A stretch of DNA of 15,801 nt from the NCBI RefSeq assembly GCF_006345805.1, contig NW_021825340.1, forward strand, positions 1 through 15,801. The letters are read 5' to 3'. Position numbers and translations under genes: made by a program. Origin of the DNA: Octopus sinensis (Eukaryota). How positions within the stretch are numbered: position 1 is the stretch's first letter; the number at the start of each line of letters is the position of its first letter. This document shows, in pieces, positions 324 through 14,629 of the stretch. Below the pieces are notes generated by a model. That model had not been told where the DNA came from. It was given only the letters and a program-made list of their open reading frames with translations, and ran no database searches.

Positions 324-706
324 TACTCTTTTACTCTTTTACATGTTACATGTTTAGTCGAGCAAATCGACCCCAGGACTTATTCTTTGTAAGCCTAGTA
401 CTTATTCTATCGGTCTCTTTTGCCGAACCGCTAAGTTACGGGGACGTAAACACACCAGCACCGGTTGTCAAGCGATGTTGGGAGGACAAACACAGACACA
501 CAAACACATACACACATACATATATATATATATACATATATAAGATGGGCTTCTTTCAGTTCCCATCTACCAAATCCACTCACAAGGCTTTGGTCGGCCC
601 GAGACTATAGTAAAAGACACTTGCCCAAGGTGCTACGTAGTGGGACTGAACCCTGAACCATGTGGTCGATAATCAAGCTACTTACCACACAGCCACTCCT
701 ACGCCT
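324..706 (-). mobile_element. tRNA-derived SINE, family A, copy 1 (near full length)
   Basis: Reverse complement matches the copies at 3863, 13551 and 14196. Minus-strand head AGGCGTAGGAGTGGCTGTGTGG (A box), GGTTCAGTCCC (B box), internal (TA)n(TG)n, (TAAAAGAG)n tail. About 38 bp near the tail is replaced by a short TTACATG duplication. Confidence 0.93.
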
Positions 707-3786: not shown

Positions 3787-3862
3787 AAAAGGTTCCTAGG
3801 GTAGTTATATTTAATTAAAAAAATAACTCATGTATCTAACTTTTAACATAATCTTTTAACAT

Positions 3863-4277
3863 AGGCGCAGGAGTGGCTGTGTGGTAAGTAGCTTGCTAAC
3901 CAGCCACATGGTTCCGGGTTCAGTCCCACTGCGTGGCATCTTGGGCAAGTGTCTTCTGCTATAGCCCCGGGTCGACCAATGCCTTATGAGTGGATTTGGT
4001 AGACGGAAACTGAAAGAAGCCTGCCGTATATATGTATATATATATGTGTGTGTATATGTTTGTGTGTCTGTGTTTGTCCCCCTAGCATTGCTTGACAACC
4101 GATGCTGGTGTGTTTACGTCCTCGTTACTTAGCGGTTCGGCAAAACAGACCGATAGAAAAAGTACTGGGCTTACAAAGAATAAGTCCCGGGGTCGATTTG
4201 CTCGACTAAAGGCGGTGCTCCAGCATGGCCGCAGTCAAATGACTGAAACAAGTAAAAGAGTAAAAGAGAGAAAAGAG
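3863..4277 (+). mobile_element. tRNA-derived SINE, family A, copy 2 (full length)
   Basis: A box TGGCTGTGTGG (from 3874), B box GGTTCAGTCCC (3917-3927), internal (TA)n(TG)n, 3' hairpin CAGTCA-AA-TGACTG, (TAAAAGAG)n tail. TAATCT occurs at 3849-3854 and 4278-4283. Confidence 0.95.
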
Positions 4278-4283
4278 TAATCT

Positions 4284-4590
4284 GATTCGAAACAGTCACA
4301 TTGCGCGGCAATATACGTGTCCCAGTGTTCCTGCCACTTTTAGAATCCGGTCTGGAAGTCGTTTTTCAGTAAGGGAGTTGAAGACCTTCTGCGATTCGTT
4401 CTGGATCTCGACAACGGTGTTAAAACGGTGGGTTTTGAACTGCATATTCATCTTAGGGAAGTCCACAGATGCTAAATCTGGCGAATAGGGCGCGAGTAGA
4501 AGCGGTACCATGTTCTTTTAGGCGAGAAACTCGCGAGTGAGGAGAGCTCAGTGACAGAGTACATTGTCGTCGAGAAGAAACCAATTCTTC
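4284..4590 (-). pseudogene. mariner transposase C-terminal fragment
   Basis: KNWFLLDDNVLCH*ALLTREFLA*KNMVPLLLAPYSPDLASVDF-PKM...; exactly 34 residues between DN and DF, YSPDLA motif. After a frameshift NDFQTGF*KWQEHWDTYIAAQCDCFESD resembles the mariner W..C....GDYFEGD end. Three stops and one frameshift. Confidence 0.92.
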
Positions 4591-4841: not shown

Positions 4842-4986
4842 GAGAAGAAAAATGAAATATCTTTTTATGGATAATTCGTTTAACCGATACCTGGGTAGCA
4901 AATTCACATCACAAATAACAAGGTTGAAGTTACGTGTCTAGGGCAGAGACTACGTGTTTTCGTGTGGAAATTTTTGTGTATTTTTG

Positions 4987-5214
4987 TAAAATTTATGAAT
5001 AAATGAAAGAATGGAGTTGAACGACAAATTAACAAATTTCCTTTATTTTCGACATATGTTTCGAAGGCTGCATATTCCTAATTGTGAAGCGGCATAATGT
5101 ACTCCTTATTCCTTCACAATTAGGAATATGCAGCCTTCGAAACATATGTCGAAAATAAAGGAAATTTGTTAATTTGTCGTTCAACTCCATTCTTTCATTT
5201 ATTCATAAATTTTA
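4987..5214. repeat. perfect inverted repeat (103-bp arms, 22-bp spacer), probable Penelope-like inverted pseudo-LTR remnant
   Basis: 4987-5089 is the exact reverse complement of 5112-5214. The right arm carries CGAAACATATGTC followed by AATAAA, the 3' half of a minimal hammerhead and a typical Penelope pLTR arrangement. The palindrome is certain; the Penelope assignment is inferred. Confidence 0.8.
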
Positions 5215-5236
5215 TAAATATATATATATATATATA

Positions 5237-5515
5237 CATTTATCGAGTGAAAAAAACGGTATGGACGATTTGTTTTGGAGTCTCGCAATACCATGTACGC
5301 CTATGAGGATTTACTTTCCCAATGAAACTCGGTTTTTTCTCAAACTTATTCTCAAACCTGTTATAATGTGATACATGTCTTTGGTGTGGTAATTGTACGC
5401 GGCTGAAGAAGGCTTTTGATCTACCTGTTATATCAATTATGCATTGATATAAGTCGTTCAATAAAGCCCGAAACATATGTACCGCAAAATCCCTTACGTC
5501 CTGTTTTTATTTTGA
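5237..5515 (+). mobile_element. Penelope-like element 3'/pseudo-LTR remnant
   Basis: Unique block bounded by (TA)n and (TACATA)n tracts, containing a minimal type I hammerhead near its 3' end. No RT or GIY-YIG motifs recognisable. Confidence 0.6.
5399..5485 (+). ncRNA. type I hammerhead ribozyme motif (minimal, Penelope-type)
   Basis: Stem I GCGG (5399-5402) / CCGC (5482-5485); core CUGAAGA (5403-5409); stem II GGCUUU/AAAGCC plus distal UUAUAUCAAU/AUUGAUAUAA; GAAA (5470-5473); palindromic stem III ACAUAUGU; cleavage triplet GUA (5479-5481). Confidence 0.85.
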
Positions 5516-5690
5516 TACATATACATATACATATACATATACTGGATAATCATCATAATCATAATCATCATTATCATCATTATCCAGTATATTGTATATG
5601 TGTATGTGTATATATGTTTATATATATATATATATATAACGGGAAGCTTTATGAAAATAAACAAAAGACGAAGGCAGTGGAAAAAACAAA

Positions 5691-5728
<38 letters not shown>

Positions 5729-5909
5729 TAGATATATATATATATAATATATATATAATATATATATATATATGCATATACACATACATATACATATGCA
5801 TATACATATACTGGATAATGATATATATTCAGTATTAATTACAGGTGTAATTGTTTTTATTCTGAAATCTTTCAACAATAATGTTTGTATTGTTTTATAG
5901 ACACATACA

Positions 5910-5951
<42 letters not shown>

Positions 5952-6004
5952 GGTGTGTGTGTGTGTGTCTGTGTCTGTGTGTTTGTGTGCGTGTGTGTGT
6001 GTGT
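5516..6004. repeat. compound (TACATA)n/(CAT)n/(TA)n/(GT)n microsatellite region with short unique islands
   Basis: Directly visible; includes a ~55-bp unique island at 5637-5692. Confidence 0.85.
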
Positions 6005-6401
6005 GGAGGAAGAGCATTTAGCAATTCAATTAGAGATTTTAAAAAGTAAACAATAATACGTGTAGCGTAATGGATTTTGATAATTTATTGAGCAGAATTA
6101 AGCCAAAGGGGATTTTAGATACAGTTATAATGTTTATTTGTGTGTTTTCAACAAATGGTTTTTGATCGATATCAGAGCAGCATCTTCATCATTATCATTG
6201 TTATCATCATTATGAGCATTACTTTCATTCTCTTCGTCTCGATGTATTCGCCATGATCATCATCATCATCATCATCGTCGTTGTCGTCGTTGTCATTTTT
6301 TTTTCATCTTTATAAACGTTGTCATCATCATCATAGTCATCACAAAACAATCATCATCATCATCATCATCATTATTATTATTGTTATTATTATCGGTACA
6401 T

Positions 6402-6470
6402 CGGTATTTCGTCCCGTTACTGCGTTCTGTGTTCAAATTCTGCCGAGGTCGACTTTGCCTTTCATCCTTC
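6402..6470 (+). mobile_element. SINE family B internal fragment
   Basis: CGGTATTTCGTC...GTTCAAATTCTGCCGAGGTCGACTTTGCCTTTCATCCTT matches 9720-9788. Confidence 0.85.
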
Positions 6471-6484
6471 ATAATAACAAAATA

Positions 6485-6538
<54 letters not shown>

Positions 6539-6925
6539 GTATAAAAGATGGGCTACAGCAAATATTCTGCTCATACCACAGATTTGCTTGTCAGTTTGCT
6601 TGACCTTAACCAGTTGAGCATGTCCCTTAGTGGCTGACGATATGTGCATCTCTGATCACGAGCAGAAGTAGTGGGGGAGCATCATAGCCATGTGTTGAGA
6701 GGAATTCTTTGGGGTTTGAATAGTTCACCTCTGGAAACATGGGTGGTTCTTTCAACATCCTTAAACAATCCTTATTCAGGGACCGTTTGAGCGGGATGGG
6801 CTACTCAACCTGAAGAAAATTCTAACTGGGCCCCACCTGCAAGGTCATGTGCTGTTTATCTTGATATGAGATCACCATGTCGCGCACATATGGTTGTGAT
6901 GCATGTGCCTAGTGTACCTTTATCA
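6539..6925 (+). mobile_element. repeat family C, copy 1 (3'-truncated duplicate of copy 2)
   Basis: Near-identical to 7284-7668 with the same start GTATAAAAGATGGG after (AAT)n. Confidence 0.9.
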
Positions 6926-6953
6926 TTACTATTATTATTACTATTATTATTGT

Positions 6954-7113
6954 TATTTCTTTATTGTCCACAAGGGGCTAAACGCAGGGGACAAAGAAGG
7001 ACAGATAAAGGGATTAAGTCGATTACATCGACCCCAGTGCGTAACTGGTACTTATTCAATCAACCCCCGAAAGGAAGAAAGTAAAGTCGGCCTCGGTGGA
7101 ATTCGAACTCAGA
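6954..7113 (-). mobile_element. SINE family B monomer (part of inverted duplication)
   Basis: Reverse complement of 7900-8060; homologous to 9744-9903. Confidence 0.9.
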
Positions 7114-7283
7114 TAACAATGGCACTCTTCTTTTTTTTTTGCTTCTATTTTCTGGAGGAGTCACCGCAATCCTATAAATGTTAATAATAATAATAATAAT
7201 AATAATAACAATAATAATAATAATAATAATAATATAATAATAATAATATAATAATAATAATAATAATAATAATATAATAATAA

Positions 7284-7749
7284 GTATAAAAGATGGGCTA
7301 CAGCAAATATTCTGCTCAATACCACAGATTTGCTTGTCAGTTGTTTGACCTAACCAGTTGAGCATGTCCCTTAGTGGCTGACGATATGTGCATCTCTGAT
7401 CACGAGCAGAAGTAGTGGGGGAGCATCATAGCCATGTGTTGAGAGGGATTTTTGGGGTTTGAATAGTTCACCTCTGGAAACATGGGTGGTTCTTTCAACA
7501 TCCTTAAACAATCCTTATTCAGGGACGGTTTGAGCGGGATGGGCTACTCAACCTGAAGAAAATTCTAACTGGGCCCCACCTGCAAGGTCATGTGCTGTTT
7601 TCTTGATATGAGATCACCATGTTGCGCACATATGGTTGTGATGCATGTGCCTAGTGTACCTTTATCAGACGGGTAGTCATGATGGGTATATTGGGCTTCG
7701 TATATTTTACCCCAGTGTCACTTTGATGGCATGAACTGCTCTCTCACTC

Positions 7750-7750
<1 letters not shown>
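7284..7750 (+). mobile_element. repeat family C, copy 2; probable non-LTR 3' end or non-autonomous retroelement with (AAT)n tail
   Basis: Homologous to 6539-6925 and, inverted, to 9161-9623. Fixed end CTCTCTCACTCA followed by (ATA)n, variable opposite end, no coding motif. Class assignment is inferred. Confidence 0.75.
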
Positions 7751-7803
<53 letters not shown>

Positions 7804-7899
7804 GTTATTATTATTATTATTATTATTAACATTTATAGGATTGCGGTGACTCCTCCAGAAAATATAGAAGCAAAAAAAAAAAGAAGAGTGCCATTGTTA

Positions 7900-8060
7900 T
7901 CTGAGTTCGAATTCCACCGAGGCCGACTTTACCTTTCTTCCTTTCGGGGGTTGATTGAATAAGTACCAGTTACGCACTGGGGTCGATGTAATCGACTTAA
8001 TCCCTTTATCTGTCCTTCTTTGTCCCCTGCGTTTAGCCCCTTGTGGACAATAAAGAAATA
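7900..8060 (+). mobile_element. SINE family B monomer
   Basis: B-box-like GAGTTCGAATTCC, CCTTTCGGGGGTTGAT...AAGTACCAG core, ends TAAAGAAATA like 9903. Confidence 0.9.
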
Positions 8061-8069
8061 ACAATAATA

Positions 8070-8159
<90 letters not shown>

Positions 8160-9146: not shown

Positions 9147-9160
9147 ATTAATATTATTAT

Positions 9161-9675
9161 TGAGTGAGAGAGCAGTGCATGTCATCAAAGTGACACTGGG
9201 ATAAAATATACGAAGCCCAGTATACCCATCATGACTACTCGTCTGATAAGGGTACACTAGGCACATGCATCACAACCATATGTGCGCAACATGGTGATCT
9301 CATATCAAGATAAACAGCACATGGCCTTGCAGATGGGGCCTAGTTAGAATTTTCTTCTGGTTAAGTAGCCCATCCCGCTCAAAAGGTCCCTGAATAAGGG
9401 TTGTTAAAGGATGTTGAACGAAACACCCATGTTTCCAGAGGTGAATTAATCAAACCCCAAGAAGCCACTCTCAACACATGGCTATGATTTCTCCCCCCTA
9501 CTTCTGTTCGTGATCAGAGATACACATATCGTCAGCCACTAAGGGACATGCTCAACTGGTTAAGGTCAGACAAGCAAATCTGTGGTGTTGCGCAGAATAT
9601 TTGCTGTAGCCCATCTTTTATACCAAAACAAAACAATGTACATCATAACGCTTCCGGTTAGTTAATATCAGAAGC
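9161..9675 (-). mobile_element. repeat family C, copy 3
   Basis: Reverse complement of 7284-7750, more diverged, ~50 bp longer at its 5' side, abutting (ATT)n at the same fixed end. Confidence 0.9.
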
Positions 9676-10243: not shown

Positions 10244-10739
10244 CTTATTAATAATTTATATTATTGCCATTATTTCATCTAAGTCCAATTGAATAAAAAC
10301 ATCAGTCAAGTACAAATGTCAGAGTATTCAGCTATGTACCATTATGCTTTTGTTAGCAATTATTTATTACCAATTCTCGGTGTTCTCATATTCTTAATGA
10401 ATACAAAAACAAACATATTTTATAAAAACAGCATCGGCAATTGGCCAATTATTGAGAATAATAAAGGCAGTGTTTCAATTGTGATGAATAATTATTTCGC
10501 CCTTCAACTGTCAGATATAATATTCATTTTACATGCTGGTGATTAATATTCAATCGACGATTTAATCTGTGTTTAAATTTGTAATTATTAATGATAATGA
10601 ATAATAATTGCAAAATGGCGCAAAGTAAAAATTGTATTCACGGCAGTGGAAACAGGAGTTTATTCGATGTTCAGACATTAATAAGGAAATACATTTTATG
10701 TGTGAACACACACACACACACTGAGAGAGAGGGGGGAGA

Positions 10740-11791
10740 GAAATAGTGAAGGACAGAGAGAGAAAGAGTGAAAGACAGAGAGAGAAAAAGTGAAAGACAG
10801 AGAGAGGAAGAGTGAAAGACAGAGAGAGGAAGAGTGAAAGACAGAGAGAGAAAGAGGGAAAGACAGCGAGAGAAAGAGGGAAAGACAGAGAGAGAAAGAG
10901 GGAAAGACAGAGAGAGAAAGAGGGAAAGACAGAGAGAGAGGGAAGACGGAGAGAGAAAGAGTGAAAGACAGAGAGAGAAAGAGTGAAAGACAGAGAGAGG
11001 AAGAGTGAAAGACAGAGAGAGGAAGAGTGAAAGACAGAGAGAGAAAGAGTGAAAGACAGAGAGAGGAAGAGGGAAAGACAGAGAGAGAAAGAGTGAAAGA
11101 CAGAGAGAGGAAGAGTGAAAGTCAGAGAGAGAAAGAGTGAAAGATAGAGAGAGGAAGAGTGAAAGACAGAGAGAGAAAGAGGGAAAGACAGAGAGAGAAA
11201 GAGTGAAAGACAGAGAGAGAAAGAGTGAAAGACAGAGAGAGAAAGAGTGAAAGACAGAGAGAGAAAGAGGGAAAGACACAGAGAGAAAGAGGGAAAGACA
11301 GAGAGAGAAAGAGTGAAAGACAGAGAGAAAGTGTGAAAGACAGAGAGAGAAAGTGTGAAAGACAGAGAGAGAAAGAGTGAAAAAGAGAGAGAGAAAGAGT
11401 GAAAGACAGAGAGAGAAAGAGTGAAAGACAGAGAGAGAAAGAGTGAAAGACAGGGAGAGAAAGAGTGAAAGACAGAGAGAGAAAGAGGGAAAGACAGAGA
11501 GAGAAAGAGGGAAAGACAGAGAGAGAAAGAGTGAAAGACAGAGAGAGAAAGAGGGAAAGACAGAGAGAGAAAGAGTGAAAGACAGAGAGAGAAAGAGTGA
11601 AAGACAGAGAGAGAAAGAGTGAAAGACAGAGAGAAAGAGTGAAAGACAGAGAGAGAAAGAGGGAAAGACAGAGAGAGAAAGAGGGAAAGACAGAGAGAGA
11701 AAGAGTGAAAGACAGAGAGAGAAAGAGTGAAAGACAGAGAGAAAGAGTGAGAGACAGAGAGAGGAAGAGTGAAAGACAGAGAGAGAAAGAG
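10740..11791. repeat. 22-bp purine-rich minisatellite, ~48 copies
   Basis: Unit GAAAGAGTGAAAGACAGAGAGA with recurrent T/G and A/G variants and occasional 20-bp units. Confidence 0.97.
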
Positions 11792-11904
11792 AGGGAGGGA
11801 AAGAGAGCGGGGAAACTAATAAGTAGGTAGACAGAGAACTCAAATAGTGAGAGAATAAGAAATTATACCCTGGACATCATTAGCTTACAACTGTTTCTAC
11901 TATA

Positions 11905-12290: not shown

Positions 12291-13550
12291 TAGATGCATA
12301 TAGGTATACAGATAAATAGATATACATATTAGGGTTACGACTTTTTCACACCCTAATAACCCTATACTGGAATTCGATGAATAATTTTATAAAAGTCAGG
12401 AAACTAATATTTATTTTGCTTTATTTGCAAAAAAATGACCCCCTCACAACTTAAGAAATCTATCACCACTTTTGACCCAAATCAAGCAAAATTCTAGAGG
12501 GCTTCATAACGCCTGCTCAAGTGTTTACCAAACTTGGTGTACTGACTCAATGCAATGCAGAAATAATATATCTGAAATTTCAGCTTTCTAGTTGAAATAG
12601 TTTCGGAGTTATGGGCTTTGCGAACTATAATCACTAGATGGCAATAGATTCCCACTTCAGTATTTCTGCAACCAAAACCCTTGTAAACGCAAGAGAAATG
12701 TGGAATAAAAGTGTATTTAAACATTTTTACGATCACTGAATTGAAATTGCTCTATGCAAAGGTTCAAGACTAGGCTATTTTAAGACAGAGGCCACTACAA
12801 GCATTCGATAACATACAAAATTAAAAACAATACATATTTTTTACTTTATAGGTTTAATTTCAATTTGAATAACTATAAGAAAAAGGATGCTGAATGTTAG
12901 CAAATTTTTAAACATAAAGAATTAATATGTTTTATTTGAGAAAATAAATCGAAGCTGAAGCTTCTCCTTCCTTTTACAAACATCATAAAGATCTTGAAGA
13001 CACTTGATTGCCCGTTCTGCACGCTGATTTGTTCTGGGAATTTCCAGTTTTGATGATTCTCGACTCCGGACGTTTTTTACAAAGTTCAAAGCTTTTTGAT
13101 GAACTTGCAGGCTACCACATAACTTCTGATAATCGTGTGCATTGAACATTTGGTCAGTAAACCAAAAATCTGCCCAGCTGTAAGAGATGAATCAACAAAC
13201 ATTGAGAAGCAAAACTCTTTTCTCTGGTAGAAGAATAAATGCCAAAAGAGCTAGTATTGCTCGAGAATTCCATCTTGCATTACTTAAGTTGGGTACTTTT
13301 TGAAACTTTGCAATAGGAAATTCGTCGGTTTTTCAAAGAAACGAAATATTCTGGTCAAATGAAATAAAAATTTCATGTCATCTCGCCATCTTACGGATTC
13401 AGTAATCTTTTCTTCACTTTTATTGAAATTAACCTGGAGTTTCTCGTAATTACTTAGAAGCTCTGGGATGAATGTATATTCAATATTGGGGTATAACTTT
13501 TTTCTCCACGTTCGTTATCTATTACAACACGAAAAATTCTATCAAGGATA

Positions 13551-13965
13551 TACTCTTACTCTTTACTCTTTTACTTGTTTCAGTCATTTGACTGCGGCCA
13601 TGCTGGAGCACCGCCTTTAATCCAGCAACTCGACCCCGGGACTTATTCTTTTGTAAGCCCAGTACTTATTCTATCGGTCTCTTTTGCCGAACCGCTAAGT
13701 AACGGGGACATAAACAAACCAGCATCGGTTGTCAAGAAATGCAAGGGGGACAAACAGACACACAAACACACACATGCATAGATATATATATACATATATA
13801 CGACGGGCTTCTTTTCAGTTTCCGTCTACCAAATCCACTCACAAGGCTTTGGTCGGCCCGAGGCTATAGTAGAGGACACTTGCCCAAGGTGCCACGCAGT
13901 GGGACTGAACCCGGAACCATGTGGTTGGTAAACATGCTACTTACCACACAGCCACTCCTGCGCCT
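13551..13965 (-). mobile_element. tRNA-derived SINE, family A, copy 3
   Basis: Full-length match to copy 2; inserted immediately after the CQHH codons of the transposase. Confidence 0.95.
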
Positions 13966-14195
13966 ATGATGCTGACAACCAATAAGTTGCGGTTCTTTCA
14001 AACCCTTTTGAGCAAACAGTCTTTGCAACTGAATGACAATGGCATTTCTTTTCCCAGTGTTCATACTCGTTGTATCAGCGGCAATCATCTTTACACAGCT
14101 ACATAAATTGTATTCATCTGAAACAGCTGTTATTCCTTTCACAACAGTATCGGCTTTTCTCTTTGGTAATCGGAGTCCTTCTAACTTACCTTCTC

Positions 14196-14427
14196 CTTTA
14201 CTCTTTTACTCTTTTACTTGTTTCAGTCATTTGACTGCGGCCATGCTGGAGCACCGCCTTTAGTCGAGCAAATCGACCCCGGGACTTATTCTTTGTAAGC
14301 CCAGTACTTATTCTATCGGTCTCTCTTGCCGAACCGCTAAGTGACGGGGACGTAAACACACCAGCATCGGTTGTCAAGCAATACTAGGGGGACAAACACA
14401 GAACACAAAACATACACACACATATAG

Positions 14428-14477
<50 letters not shown>

Positions 14478-14629
14478 TACGACAGGCTTCTACCAAATCT
14501 ACTCACAAGGCTTTGGTCGGCCCGAGGCTATAGCAGAAGACACTTGCCCAAGGTGCCACGCAGTGGGACTGAACCCGTAACCATGTGGTTGGTTAGCAAG
14601 CTACTTACCACACAGCCACTCCTGCACCT
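14196..14629 (-). mobile_element. tRNA-derived SINE, family A, copy 4
   Basis: Full-length match with expanded internal (TA)n and a ~14-bp deletion beside it; inserted between the first and second catalytic aspartates of the transposase. Confidence 0.95.

What the first reader, a model, noticed from the sequence alone, without database searches (positions are those of the whole stretch)
5399..5485. Hammerhead ribozyme with minimal palindromic stem III and a greatly extended stem II
Seen: complete core in type I order - GCGG, CUGAAGA, a 60-nt stem II region (5410-5469: 6-bp basal helix, internal loop, perfect 10-bp distal helix, 5-nt loop), GAAA, C-AUAU-G, UA, CCGC. Predicted cut after A5481. 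An A-C apposition closes the base of stem II. Established: Penelope-like elements carry minimal type I hammerheads with palindromic stem III thought to cleave as dimers. Inference: the long two-part stem II is atypical of these usually compact motifs and may mark a lineage-specific variant or a small non-autonomous ribozyme retroelement. No compatible second copy lies in the window, so activity may need a partner in trans.
Basis: partly seen in the sequence, partly recalled or inferred. Interest (0 to 1): 0.75.

Follow-up and report, generated by a model that had tools for sequence, protein, structure and literature searches.

The report
Long-armed hammerhead of Hydra-type retrotransposon
This is the cut-off tail end of an abundant Penelope-like jumping gene, carrying an intact hammerhead (self-cutting RNA) motif with a side arm two to five times longer than in its relatives; matched changes in its palindromic stem suggest it likely cuts only when two copies pair, but cutting is untested.

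Summary
The motif is real. Core, stem I, a 60-nt stem II and an 8-nt palindromic stem III lie at 5399-5485, and the predicted cut is after A5481. It is not a stand-alone mini-retroelement. It is the 5'-truncated 3' end (about 5239-5523, in a TA microsatellite) of a Hydra-type Penelope-like retrotransposon. The genome holds at least 1,802 exact-core copies (control 0), 118 of this subtype. Nineteen of 20 stretches picked by the endonuclease alone carry this hammerhead downstream. A young sister subfamily has an intact 836-aa RT-endonuclease ORF between two direct hammerheads 4.4 kb apart, so a dimer partner exists in cis. Across subfamilies the palindrome centre shifts UA - UG - CG, keeping pairs that can form only between two molecules. 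Stem II is 51-70 nt here against 10-29 nt in 40 Hydra-like hammerheads from metagenomes, and Rfam misses it. Only the basal 4 bp are conserved family-wide; the 10-bp distal helix is subfamily-specific. Cleavage and expression are untested. The scan already reported this kind on other DNA of this genome. Verdict: new variant of a known kind.

The parts
5239..5523 (+). 5'-truncated solo 3' end (pseudo-LTR) of a Hydra-type Penelope-like element, between TA-type microsatellites
   Evidence: Shared with 40 scored genomic places at 91-97% identity; boundaries
5399..5402 (+). Stem I, 5' strand (GCGG)
   Evidence: pair probability 0.92-0.94; 94.9% of cells paired in 49 sequences
5403..5409 (+). Catalytic core, 5' part (CUGAAGA)
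   Evidence: identical in the sister subfamily found by protein search alone
5410..5469 (+). 60-nt stem II arm: A.C apposition at its base, basal helix 5411-5416/5463-5468, short middle helix, distal helix 5428-5437/5443-5452, loop 5438-5442
   Evidence: only the 4 basal pairs are family-wide
5460..5465 (+). AATAAA in the 3' arm of stem II (possible poly(A) signal; TATAAA in two older subfamilies)
   Evidence: Sequence; census by subfamily; function untested
5470..5481 (+). GAAA core, palindromic stem III ACAUAUGU (5473-5480) and cleavage-site A5481; predicted cut 5481/5482
   Evidence: palindrome variants counted genome-wide
5482..5485 (+). Stem I, 3' strand (CCGC)
5486..5523 (+). Short 3' extension ending at the first of the family's two common end points (in full elements this is the start of the 5' UTR of the next unit)
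   Evidence: 3' ends of 45 copies cluster at about +30-45 (17) and +95-125 (27), 1 between; in the young subfamily it runs on to the ORF start

Best explanation
This is the 5'-truncated terminal repeat of a Hydra-type Penelope-like retrotransposon, and its hammerhead likely self-cleaves after A5481 only as a dimer, two copies pairing through the 8-nt palindrome. In intact elements the repeat flanks the RT-endonuclease ORF in direct orientation (shown). A read-through transcript would carry two hammerheads that swap stem I strands and form an 8-bp intermolecular stem III (predicted). Cutting at both would release a unit-length RNA of about 4.4 kb that starts about 200 nt before the ORF start codon (inferred). 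The long stem II is most likely a tolerated, lineage-wide extension: selection keeps the basal pairs and a closed arm, not a particular distal helix (inferred from subfamily comparison). The window copy is a dead-on-arrival end fragment dropped into a TA microsatellite; it has no partner in cis and is probably silent or slow.
For: Copy number and pattern: 1,217 first-look candidates; 1,802 exact-core matches, control 0; variable 5' truncation, two shared 3' end points, TA flanks and inverted 5' copies. Parent: walking upstream from the hammerhead reaches an ORF end with a Hydra-type endonuclease. In one search, 8 of the 12 stretches (of 18) that hold the endonuclease have the family repeat downstream on the same strand, 7 with a whole hammerhead, including window-type copies L156 and L076. 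Of 20 stretches picked by the endonuclease alone, 19 carry this hammerhead downstream (L201 and L202 overlap). Intact 836-aa ORF between direct hammerheads 4,440-4,769 nt apart; direct pairs also in the older subfamilies (3,179 and 3,851 nt) and in the window's own subtype (590 and 2,979 nt). Selection on the motif: the young subfamily is identical to the window over core and stems I/III but only 59-71% alike in flanks and stem II; the consensus fold recovers the hammerhead junction with two-sided changes at 4 of 10 pairs; covariation score reached by 0 of 500 shuffles; no variant above 10% at 5393-5414 or 5470-5499 in contigs of 4 runs from 4 organism labels, while 28 variants are listed elsewhere. 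Dimer: stem III centre is UA in 1,802, CG in 223, wobble UG in 105 and non-pairing CA in 25 matches; the UG form is its own lineage (about 64 of 100 listed rows begin stem II with GG, against 4 of 100 for CG and 1 of 25 for CA, counted by eye). Monomer stem III pair probability 0.25; a tandem dimer is 8 kcal/mol more stable than two monomers and is the minimum-energy fold. Dimer use by such motifs is established (PMC4209133, PMC7229834).
Against: No cleavage or transcript-end data. The window-type base of stem II is A.C (A.A in a sister lineage), not the G10.1-C11.1 pair that PMC4209133 calls highly conserved, and no loop-loop contact with stem I was found, so activity may be low. PMC4209133 reports low in vitro activity of metazoan PLE hammerheads even as dimers. 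PMC11167929 found that hammerhead mutants of a lizard PLE still insert in vitro and saw no RNA-seq reads ending at the cut site. The palindrome path is one evolutionary path, not many independent events, and part of the UG class is CpG decay of the CG class. Shuffle controls ignore relatedness, and 'pairs with a two-sided change' was not above shuffles (163 of 500). The most common neighbour arrangement is inverted, not direct (19 of 25 pairs). Core identity is partly built in by the search pattern.
Confidence: 0.75

Rival explanations
1. Same element, but the hammerhead is kept mainly as a fold or a very slow cutter. Its job would be to help translation of the ORF 200 nt downstream or to present the RNA to the element's RT, not to release unit-length RNA.
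For: Hammerhead sits about 200 nt upstream of the start codon; non-canonical A.C/A.A base of stem II; insertion without cleavage in vitro for another PLE (PMC11167929); hammerhead-dependent cap-independent translation in fungal viruses (PMC13725137).
Against: All catalytic residues and the UH site are kept across lineages whose flanks are 55-70% alike; the viral case itself needed the catalytic G.
Confidence: 0.12
2. The long arm is a selected regulatory module: it carries the element's poly(A) signal 16 nt before the ribozyme cut, so folding of the hammerhead competes with polyadenylation and decides between terminated mRNA and read-through tandem RNA.
For: AATAAA in the 3' arm in 38 of 42 window-type, 24 of 24 D/D2 and 35 of 37 young copies, with a U-rich tract downstream; 4 of 12 other hammerhead types in the fetched loci have A[AT]TAAA inside stems of 57-59 nt.
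Against: Two older subfamilies have TATAAA instead (0 of 11 and 0 of 15 with AATAAA); the sequence is AT-rich; genomic copies end 35-120 nt further on, in TA repeats, without poly(A).
Confidence: 0.08
3. An independent small non-coding retrozyme that merely resembles PLE ends.
For: Most copies are short and non-coding; retrozymes derive from PLE ends (bioRxiv 10.64898/2026.07.22.740005); one direct pair only 590 nt apart and one 891 nt apart.
Against: Copies have no fixed 5' end and extend continuously into the ORF; no short head-to-tail array in the window or in the 25 neighbour pairs examined.
Confidence: 0.04
4. Chance match in AT-rich repeat DNA.
For: Whole-motif folding z only -1.49; no Rfam match.
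Against: 1,802 matches against 0 control; conserved position in a retroelement end; compensatory changes.
Confidence: 0.01

Closest known systems
Hydra-clade Penelope-like elements and their hammerheads (Craig et al. 2021, PMC8557442; seen: passages, section 11, supplement parts 2 and 24 and search hits; includes Hydra-1_Obim)
   Same: C-terminal GIY-YIG endonuclease without CCHH, DKT, CxCX5C linker, CxxC and CxH around E and N, (TA)n targets, partial tandems and inverted 5' copies, type I hammerhead with palindromic stem III and often a 1x1 apposition (mostly U.U) at the base of stem II.
   Different: Stem II 51-70 nt against short hairpins in all listed Hydra entries (File S2) and 10-29 nt in 40 metagenomic relatives; unit about 4.4 kb or more with a 1.6-3.9 kb microsatellite-rich 3' UTR against under 3 kb; RWA in place of RWK; Asn-rich insertions in the ORF. 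The hammerhead listed for Hydra-1_Obim is a different sequence.
Minimal type I hammerheads of metazoan PLEs (Cervera and De la Pena 2014, PMC4209133; seen: parts 1-2 of 4)
   Same: Type I order, 4-bp stem I, palindromic short stem III, extra nucleotide after A9, dimer model, many solo copies from truncated elements.
   Different: Helix II there is 6-8 bp; here a 51-70 nt multi-part arm. G10.1-C11.1 is present only in one subfamily in the homologous register.
PLE-X1 hammerheads of spike mosses (PMC8557442 File S2, marked as deviating)
   Same: Published PLE hammerheads with a large stem II loop (about 30-35 nt), so long arms are not without precedent among PLEs.
   Different: Plant, endonuclease-lacking, rDNA-targeting clade; unrelated sequence.
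Metazoan non-LTR retrozymes (PMC7229834, passages; bioRxiv 10.64898/2026.07.22.740005, part 1 of 5)
   Same: Type I hammerhead; dimer-dependent cleavage and a U.U at the base of helix II in axolotl motifs.
   Different: Those are 150-450 bp non-coding tandem arrays with loop 1-loop 2 contacts; this motif is the end of a coding element.

Membership tests
Type I hammerhead ribozyme | Core CUGANGA...GAAA...UH in type I order | tested here: met
Type I hammerhead ribozyme | Three helices around the core, supported by variation | tested here: met
   Consensus fold of 49 sequences gives stems I, basal II, III; two-sided changes at 4 of 10 pairs; slid controls 23-39% paired against 85%
Type I hammerhead ribozyme | G10.1-C11.1 pair closing stem II | tested here: inconclusive
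   A.C in the homologous register in the window type; G-C, G.U or A.A in sister subfamilies. A slipped register G5411-C5469 is possible for this copy only. U.U at this place is common in Hydra relatives
Type I hammerhead ribozyme | Loop 1-loop 2 tertiary contact | tested here: inconclusive
   No conserved extension of stem I or partner for the stem II loops in constrained folds of six subfamilies; non-canonical contacts cannot be seen this way
Type I hammerhead ribozyme | Site-specific self-cleavage | not testable with these tools
   Needs an in vitro assay; only assembled contigs, no raw reads, were offered
Rfam hammerhead families | Match to a covariance model | tested here: not met
   No hammerhead family at E<=1 in the window
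PLE minimal/dimeric hammerhead | Palindromic stem III, weak as monomer | tested here: met
   ACAUAUGU; monomer pair probability 0.25; dimer 8 kcal/mol better; centre UA/UG/CG lineages
PLE minimal/dimeric hammerhead | Location in the pseudo-LTR of a PLE | tested here: met
PLE minimal/dimeric hammerhead | Compact helix II (up to about 8 bp) | tested here: not met
   51-70 nt
Hydra clade of PLEs | Single ORF, RT followed by C-terminal GIY-YIG endonuclease | tested here: met
   836-aa ORF with FDI, YRDD and VIY...YIG motifs. Pfam names no RT or endonuclease domain in it; 573 homologues at E<=0.001
Hydra clade of PLEs | DKT in place of DKG; CxCX5C linker; CxxC and CxH around E and N; no CCHH | tested here: met
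   PADKTG, CNCRCASEC / CNCADASAC, CQLC..E, NKRSE....C.H; 119 of 120 listed homologues have DKT/DKS, 0 ADKG
Hydra clade of PLEs | RWK motif | tested here: not met
   RIRWAA in the young ORF; RWK in 79 of 120 homologues, so the motif varies within the group
Hydra clade of PLEs | Insertion into (TA)n | tested here: met
Hydra clade of PLEs | Generally under 3 kb with canonical hammerhead | tested here: not met
   Unit 4.4-4.8 kb in the young subfamily; long stem II
Hydra clade of PLEs | Placement in an RT tree with named Hydra families | not tested
   No named reference proteins were available to the tools; hence 'Hydra-type', not a formal assignment
Naiad clade of PLEs | N-terminal endonuclease; published octopus Naiad 3' ends | tested here: not met
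   Endonuclease is C-terminal; the published Naiad_Obim and Naiad_Ovul ends do not hold this motif (read by eye)
Neptune-like PLE | ORF with CX2-5CxxC finger linked to this end | tested here: not met
   Such an ORF is nested in one copy (L075), but 0 of 20 other stretches of that family carry this hammerhead
Non-LTR retrozyme | Short non-coding unit in head-to-tail arrays | tested here: not met

The most novel reading that the evidence does not exclude
Octopod Hydra-type retrotransposons have turned hammerhead stem II into a modular 50-70 nt platform that carries the element's poly(A) signal or a protein-binding site, making the dimer-dependent ribozyme a switch between terminated mRNA and cleaved unit-length template RNA; the UA-UG-CG walk of the palindrome centre would be natural covariation evidence for intermolecular pairing.
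Probability: 0.12. Interest if true: 0.72.

Novelty: new variant of a known kind. Interest (0 to 1): 0.42.

Why it matters
What PLE hammerheads do is still open (PMC8557442, PMC11167929). This family gives a ready test system: a young subfamily with intact ORFs and two hammerheads in cis, plus natural variants at the base of stem II (G.U, G-C, A.C, A.A) and at the palindrome centre (CG, UG, UA) that predict which heterodimers should cut. It also shows that Rfam and short-stem descriptors miss thousands of hammerheads in this genome, so elements reported as lacking one may hide a long-armed form. The window copy itself is an ordinary dead fragment.

Tried and rejected
1) Neptune-like ORF in L075 as parent: rejected, nested insertion with its own 3' end; 0 of 20 other stretches carry this hammerhead. 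2) Naiad 'half-core' as source: rejected, endonuclease is C-terminal and published octopus Naiad ends differ. 3) Upstream half-hammerhead in the window as partner: rejected, no CUGANGA and non-matching stem I. 4) Kissing loop through AUGCAU in the distal loop: not conserved (0 of 15 in one subfamily, 6 of 11 in another). 5) Conserved extension of stem I or loop-loop pairing: none found. 6) Distal 10-bp helix as family feature: absent from the consensus fold; 10 of 49 rows have gaps there; where present it changes only on one side (G.U). 7) Expression: no RNA holder listed on record, only contigs; contigs show presence in 4 organism labels but cannot show ends, strand or level; transcription of the full element remains unexamined. 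8) Rows left out: 51 representatives at under 95.5% identity were taken from 102 distinct motifs, and 3 with large internal deletions (L050, L161, L216) were dropped before the 49-row alignment, which adds the window; 34 of 78 metagenomic loci gave no hammerhead and are not in the length count. 9) Literature: 4 full-text searches showed no paper on long-stem-II hammerheads in cephalopod or Hydra PLEs; subscription journals, Repbase and Dfam were not searched, and only 3 views of the 59-part supplement of PMC8557442 were read. 10) Sequence look-up in the scan's own findings gave nothing.

Full report
Observation. The window is a whole 15.8-kb contig of a 2.7-Gb animal genome, rich in microsatellites. 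The nearest named protein relatives of the parent element are from Argonauta hians, so the host is probably an octopod (inference). The motif is as described: stem I 5399-5402/5482-5485, CUGAAGA 5403-5409, a 60-nt stem II, GAAA, the palindrome ACAUAUGU 5473-5480 and A5481. The whole fold is unremarkable by energy (z -1.49), stem II alone is not (z -4.0), and Rfam has no hammerhead match.

It is a repeat end. The 271 nt around it have 1,217 first-look candidates; the 40 scored are 91-97% identical apart from the window itself. Copies start at many different 5' points, often have an inverted 5' copy, sit in TA repeats and end at two places, about 30-45 nt (17 of 45) or 95-125 nt (27 of 45) after the cut site. 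The window copy (about 5239-5523) ends at the first. Two end points fit the two internal RT start sites reported for a lizard PLE (PMC11167929, passages). The exact core pattern has 1,802 matches (control 0), 118 of the window subtype.

Finding the parent. A first candidate, a Neptune-like ORF in L075, failed: its family has its own 3' end and 0 of 20 other stretches carry this hammerhead. Walking upstream through a long microsatellite-rich 3' UTR led to an ORF end with a different endonuclease. In 18 stretches, 12 held that endonuclease and 8 of these had the family repeat downstream on the same strand, including window-type copies. The reverse test was stronger: of 20 stretches chosen by the endonuclease alone, 19 carry this hammerhead downstream (two stretches overlap). 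A young sister subfamily has an intact 836-aa ORF, 55-89% identical to window-lineage fragments, arranged hammerhead - 200-nt leader - ORF - 1.7-kb 3' UTR - hammerhead. Its motifs match the published Hydra definition (section 11 of PMC8557442): DKT, CxCX5C linker, CxxC and CxH, no CCHH, TA targets. It departs in RWA for RWK and in size. I call it Hydra-type; no tree with named references was possible.

What is conserved. The young subfamily, found through the protein, is identical to the window over core, stem I and stem III, while flanks and stem II are 59-71% alike. Contigs from 4 runs of 4 organism labels show no variant above 10% at 5393-5414 and 5470-5499, against 28 listed elsewhere. The consensus fold of 49 motifs gives exactly stems I, III and 4 basal pairs of stem II, with two-sided changes at 4 of 10 pairs. 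For the window's full structure 85% of cells pair against 23-39% when slid; the covariation score beats all 500 shuffles, but the count of covarying pairs does not, and the shuffles ignore relatedness. The distal 10-bp helix is not family-wide: the young subfamily lacks 11 nt of it. Every subfamily still keeps a 51-70 nt arm that folds better than shuffles (median z -1.4 to -3.5).

How unusual the arm is. Of 78 Hydra-like loci from metagenomes, 44 gave a hammerhead on the coding strand (0 on the other strand, 0 in reversed sequence), and the 40 distinct stem II segments are 10-29 nt. Published Hydra entries are short as well; only two spike-moss PLE-X entries have large loops. In this genome the long arm is not unique: 9 of 12 other hammerhead types in my loci have 43-59 nt.

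Mechanism. As a monomer stem III has only 2 pairs (probability 0.25); a tandem dimer with an 8-bp intermolecular stem III is 8 kcal/mol better and is the minimum-energy fold for the window and young motifs. The two central bases are adjacent, so they can pair only between molecules. They read UA in 1,802, CG in 223, UG in 105 and CA in 25 matches (the UA pattern is slightly stricter). CA copies are scattered over backgrounds, as decay would give, whereas UG is largely one lineage lying between the CG and UA lineages (about 64 of 100 listed rows, by eye). This is one compensatory path through a wobble, suggestive rather than proof. Direct tandem pairs exist in young, older and window-type lineages, although inverted pairs are commoner (19 of 25). 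The best model is dimer-dependent cleavage that trims tandem transcripts to unit length. Against it stand the low activity of such motifs in vitro (PMC4209133) and insertion without cleavage in another PLE. The AAUAAA in the arm and the position 200 nt before the start codon (cf. PMC13725137, passages) give two weaker rivals.

Earlier scan findings (seen after I had reached this reading) describe the same kind on other DNA of this genome, among them the 51-nt young motif. They are not independent support. This report adds the link for the 60-nt subtype, the palindrome-centre path and the metagenomic length baseline. An octopus repeat annotation that I searched mentions neither Hydra nor ribozymes (PMC13282606, term search).

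Verdict. Observation confirmed; interpretation partly supported; new variant of a known kind; interest 0.42.

Noticed in passing
window 4843-5238: Fold-back (127-nt arms, 93%) of the 3' end of a second PLE-like family: both arms hold the 3' half of a hammerhead with the same palindrome but no CUGANGA. The complete form (54-nt stem II, AATAAA right after the cut site) is in L209 near 7897, minus strand.
   Followed up: partly
window 5230-5245 and L030: The 5' junction reads like a piece of the family's tail joined to the repeat through a 6-nt shared word, the same in the window and in L030; possibly a template switch.
   Followed up: no
L004, L019, L023, L117, L119, L206, L209, L216, L219, L015: Several unrelated hammerhead types with 43-68 nt stem II and palindromic stem III; long arms recur across PLE-like families in this genome.
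   Followed up: partly
L075 (ORF 4957-7150, minus) and L109-L128: Abundant Neptune-like PLE family (RT, CxxxxCxxC finger, GIY-YIG; open frames to 776 aa) with a microsatellite-rich 3' UTR; its end may hold a hammerhead with a U3-A8 core (read by eye, untested).
   Followed up: partly
L156, L076, L157: The window lineage's ORF has about 200 residues of Asn-rich low-complexity sequence between RT and endonuclease, longer than in the young subfamily, and a 3' UTR of up to about 4 kb with built-in microsatellite tracts that later insertions target.
   Followed up: partly
window 353-706, 3860-4268, 13562-13968, 14201-14629: Four copies of a roughly 400-nt SINE-like repeat in both orientations.
   Followed up: no
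window 6596-7140, 7351-8094, 9147-9573: Several direct and inverted copies of another interspersed repeat, with inverted arms up to 330 nt.
   Followed up: no
window 10736-11815: 22-bp purine-rich minisatellite, about 48 copies.
   Followed up: no
window 4296-4517, 12922-13514, 13864-14205 (minus): Short frames that look like decayed DNA-transposon pieces (recalled resemblance only); Pfam gave nothing above cut-off.
   Followed up: partly
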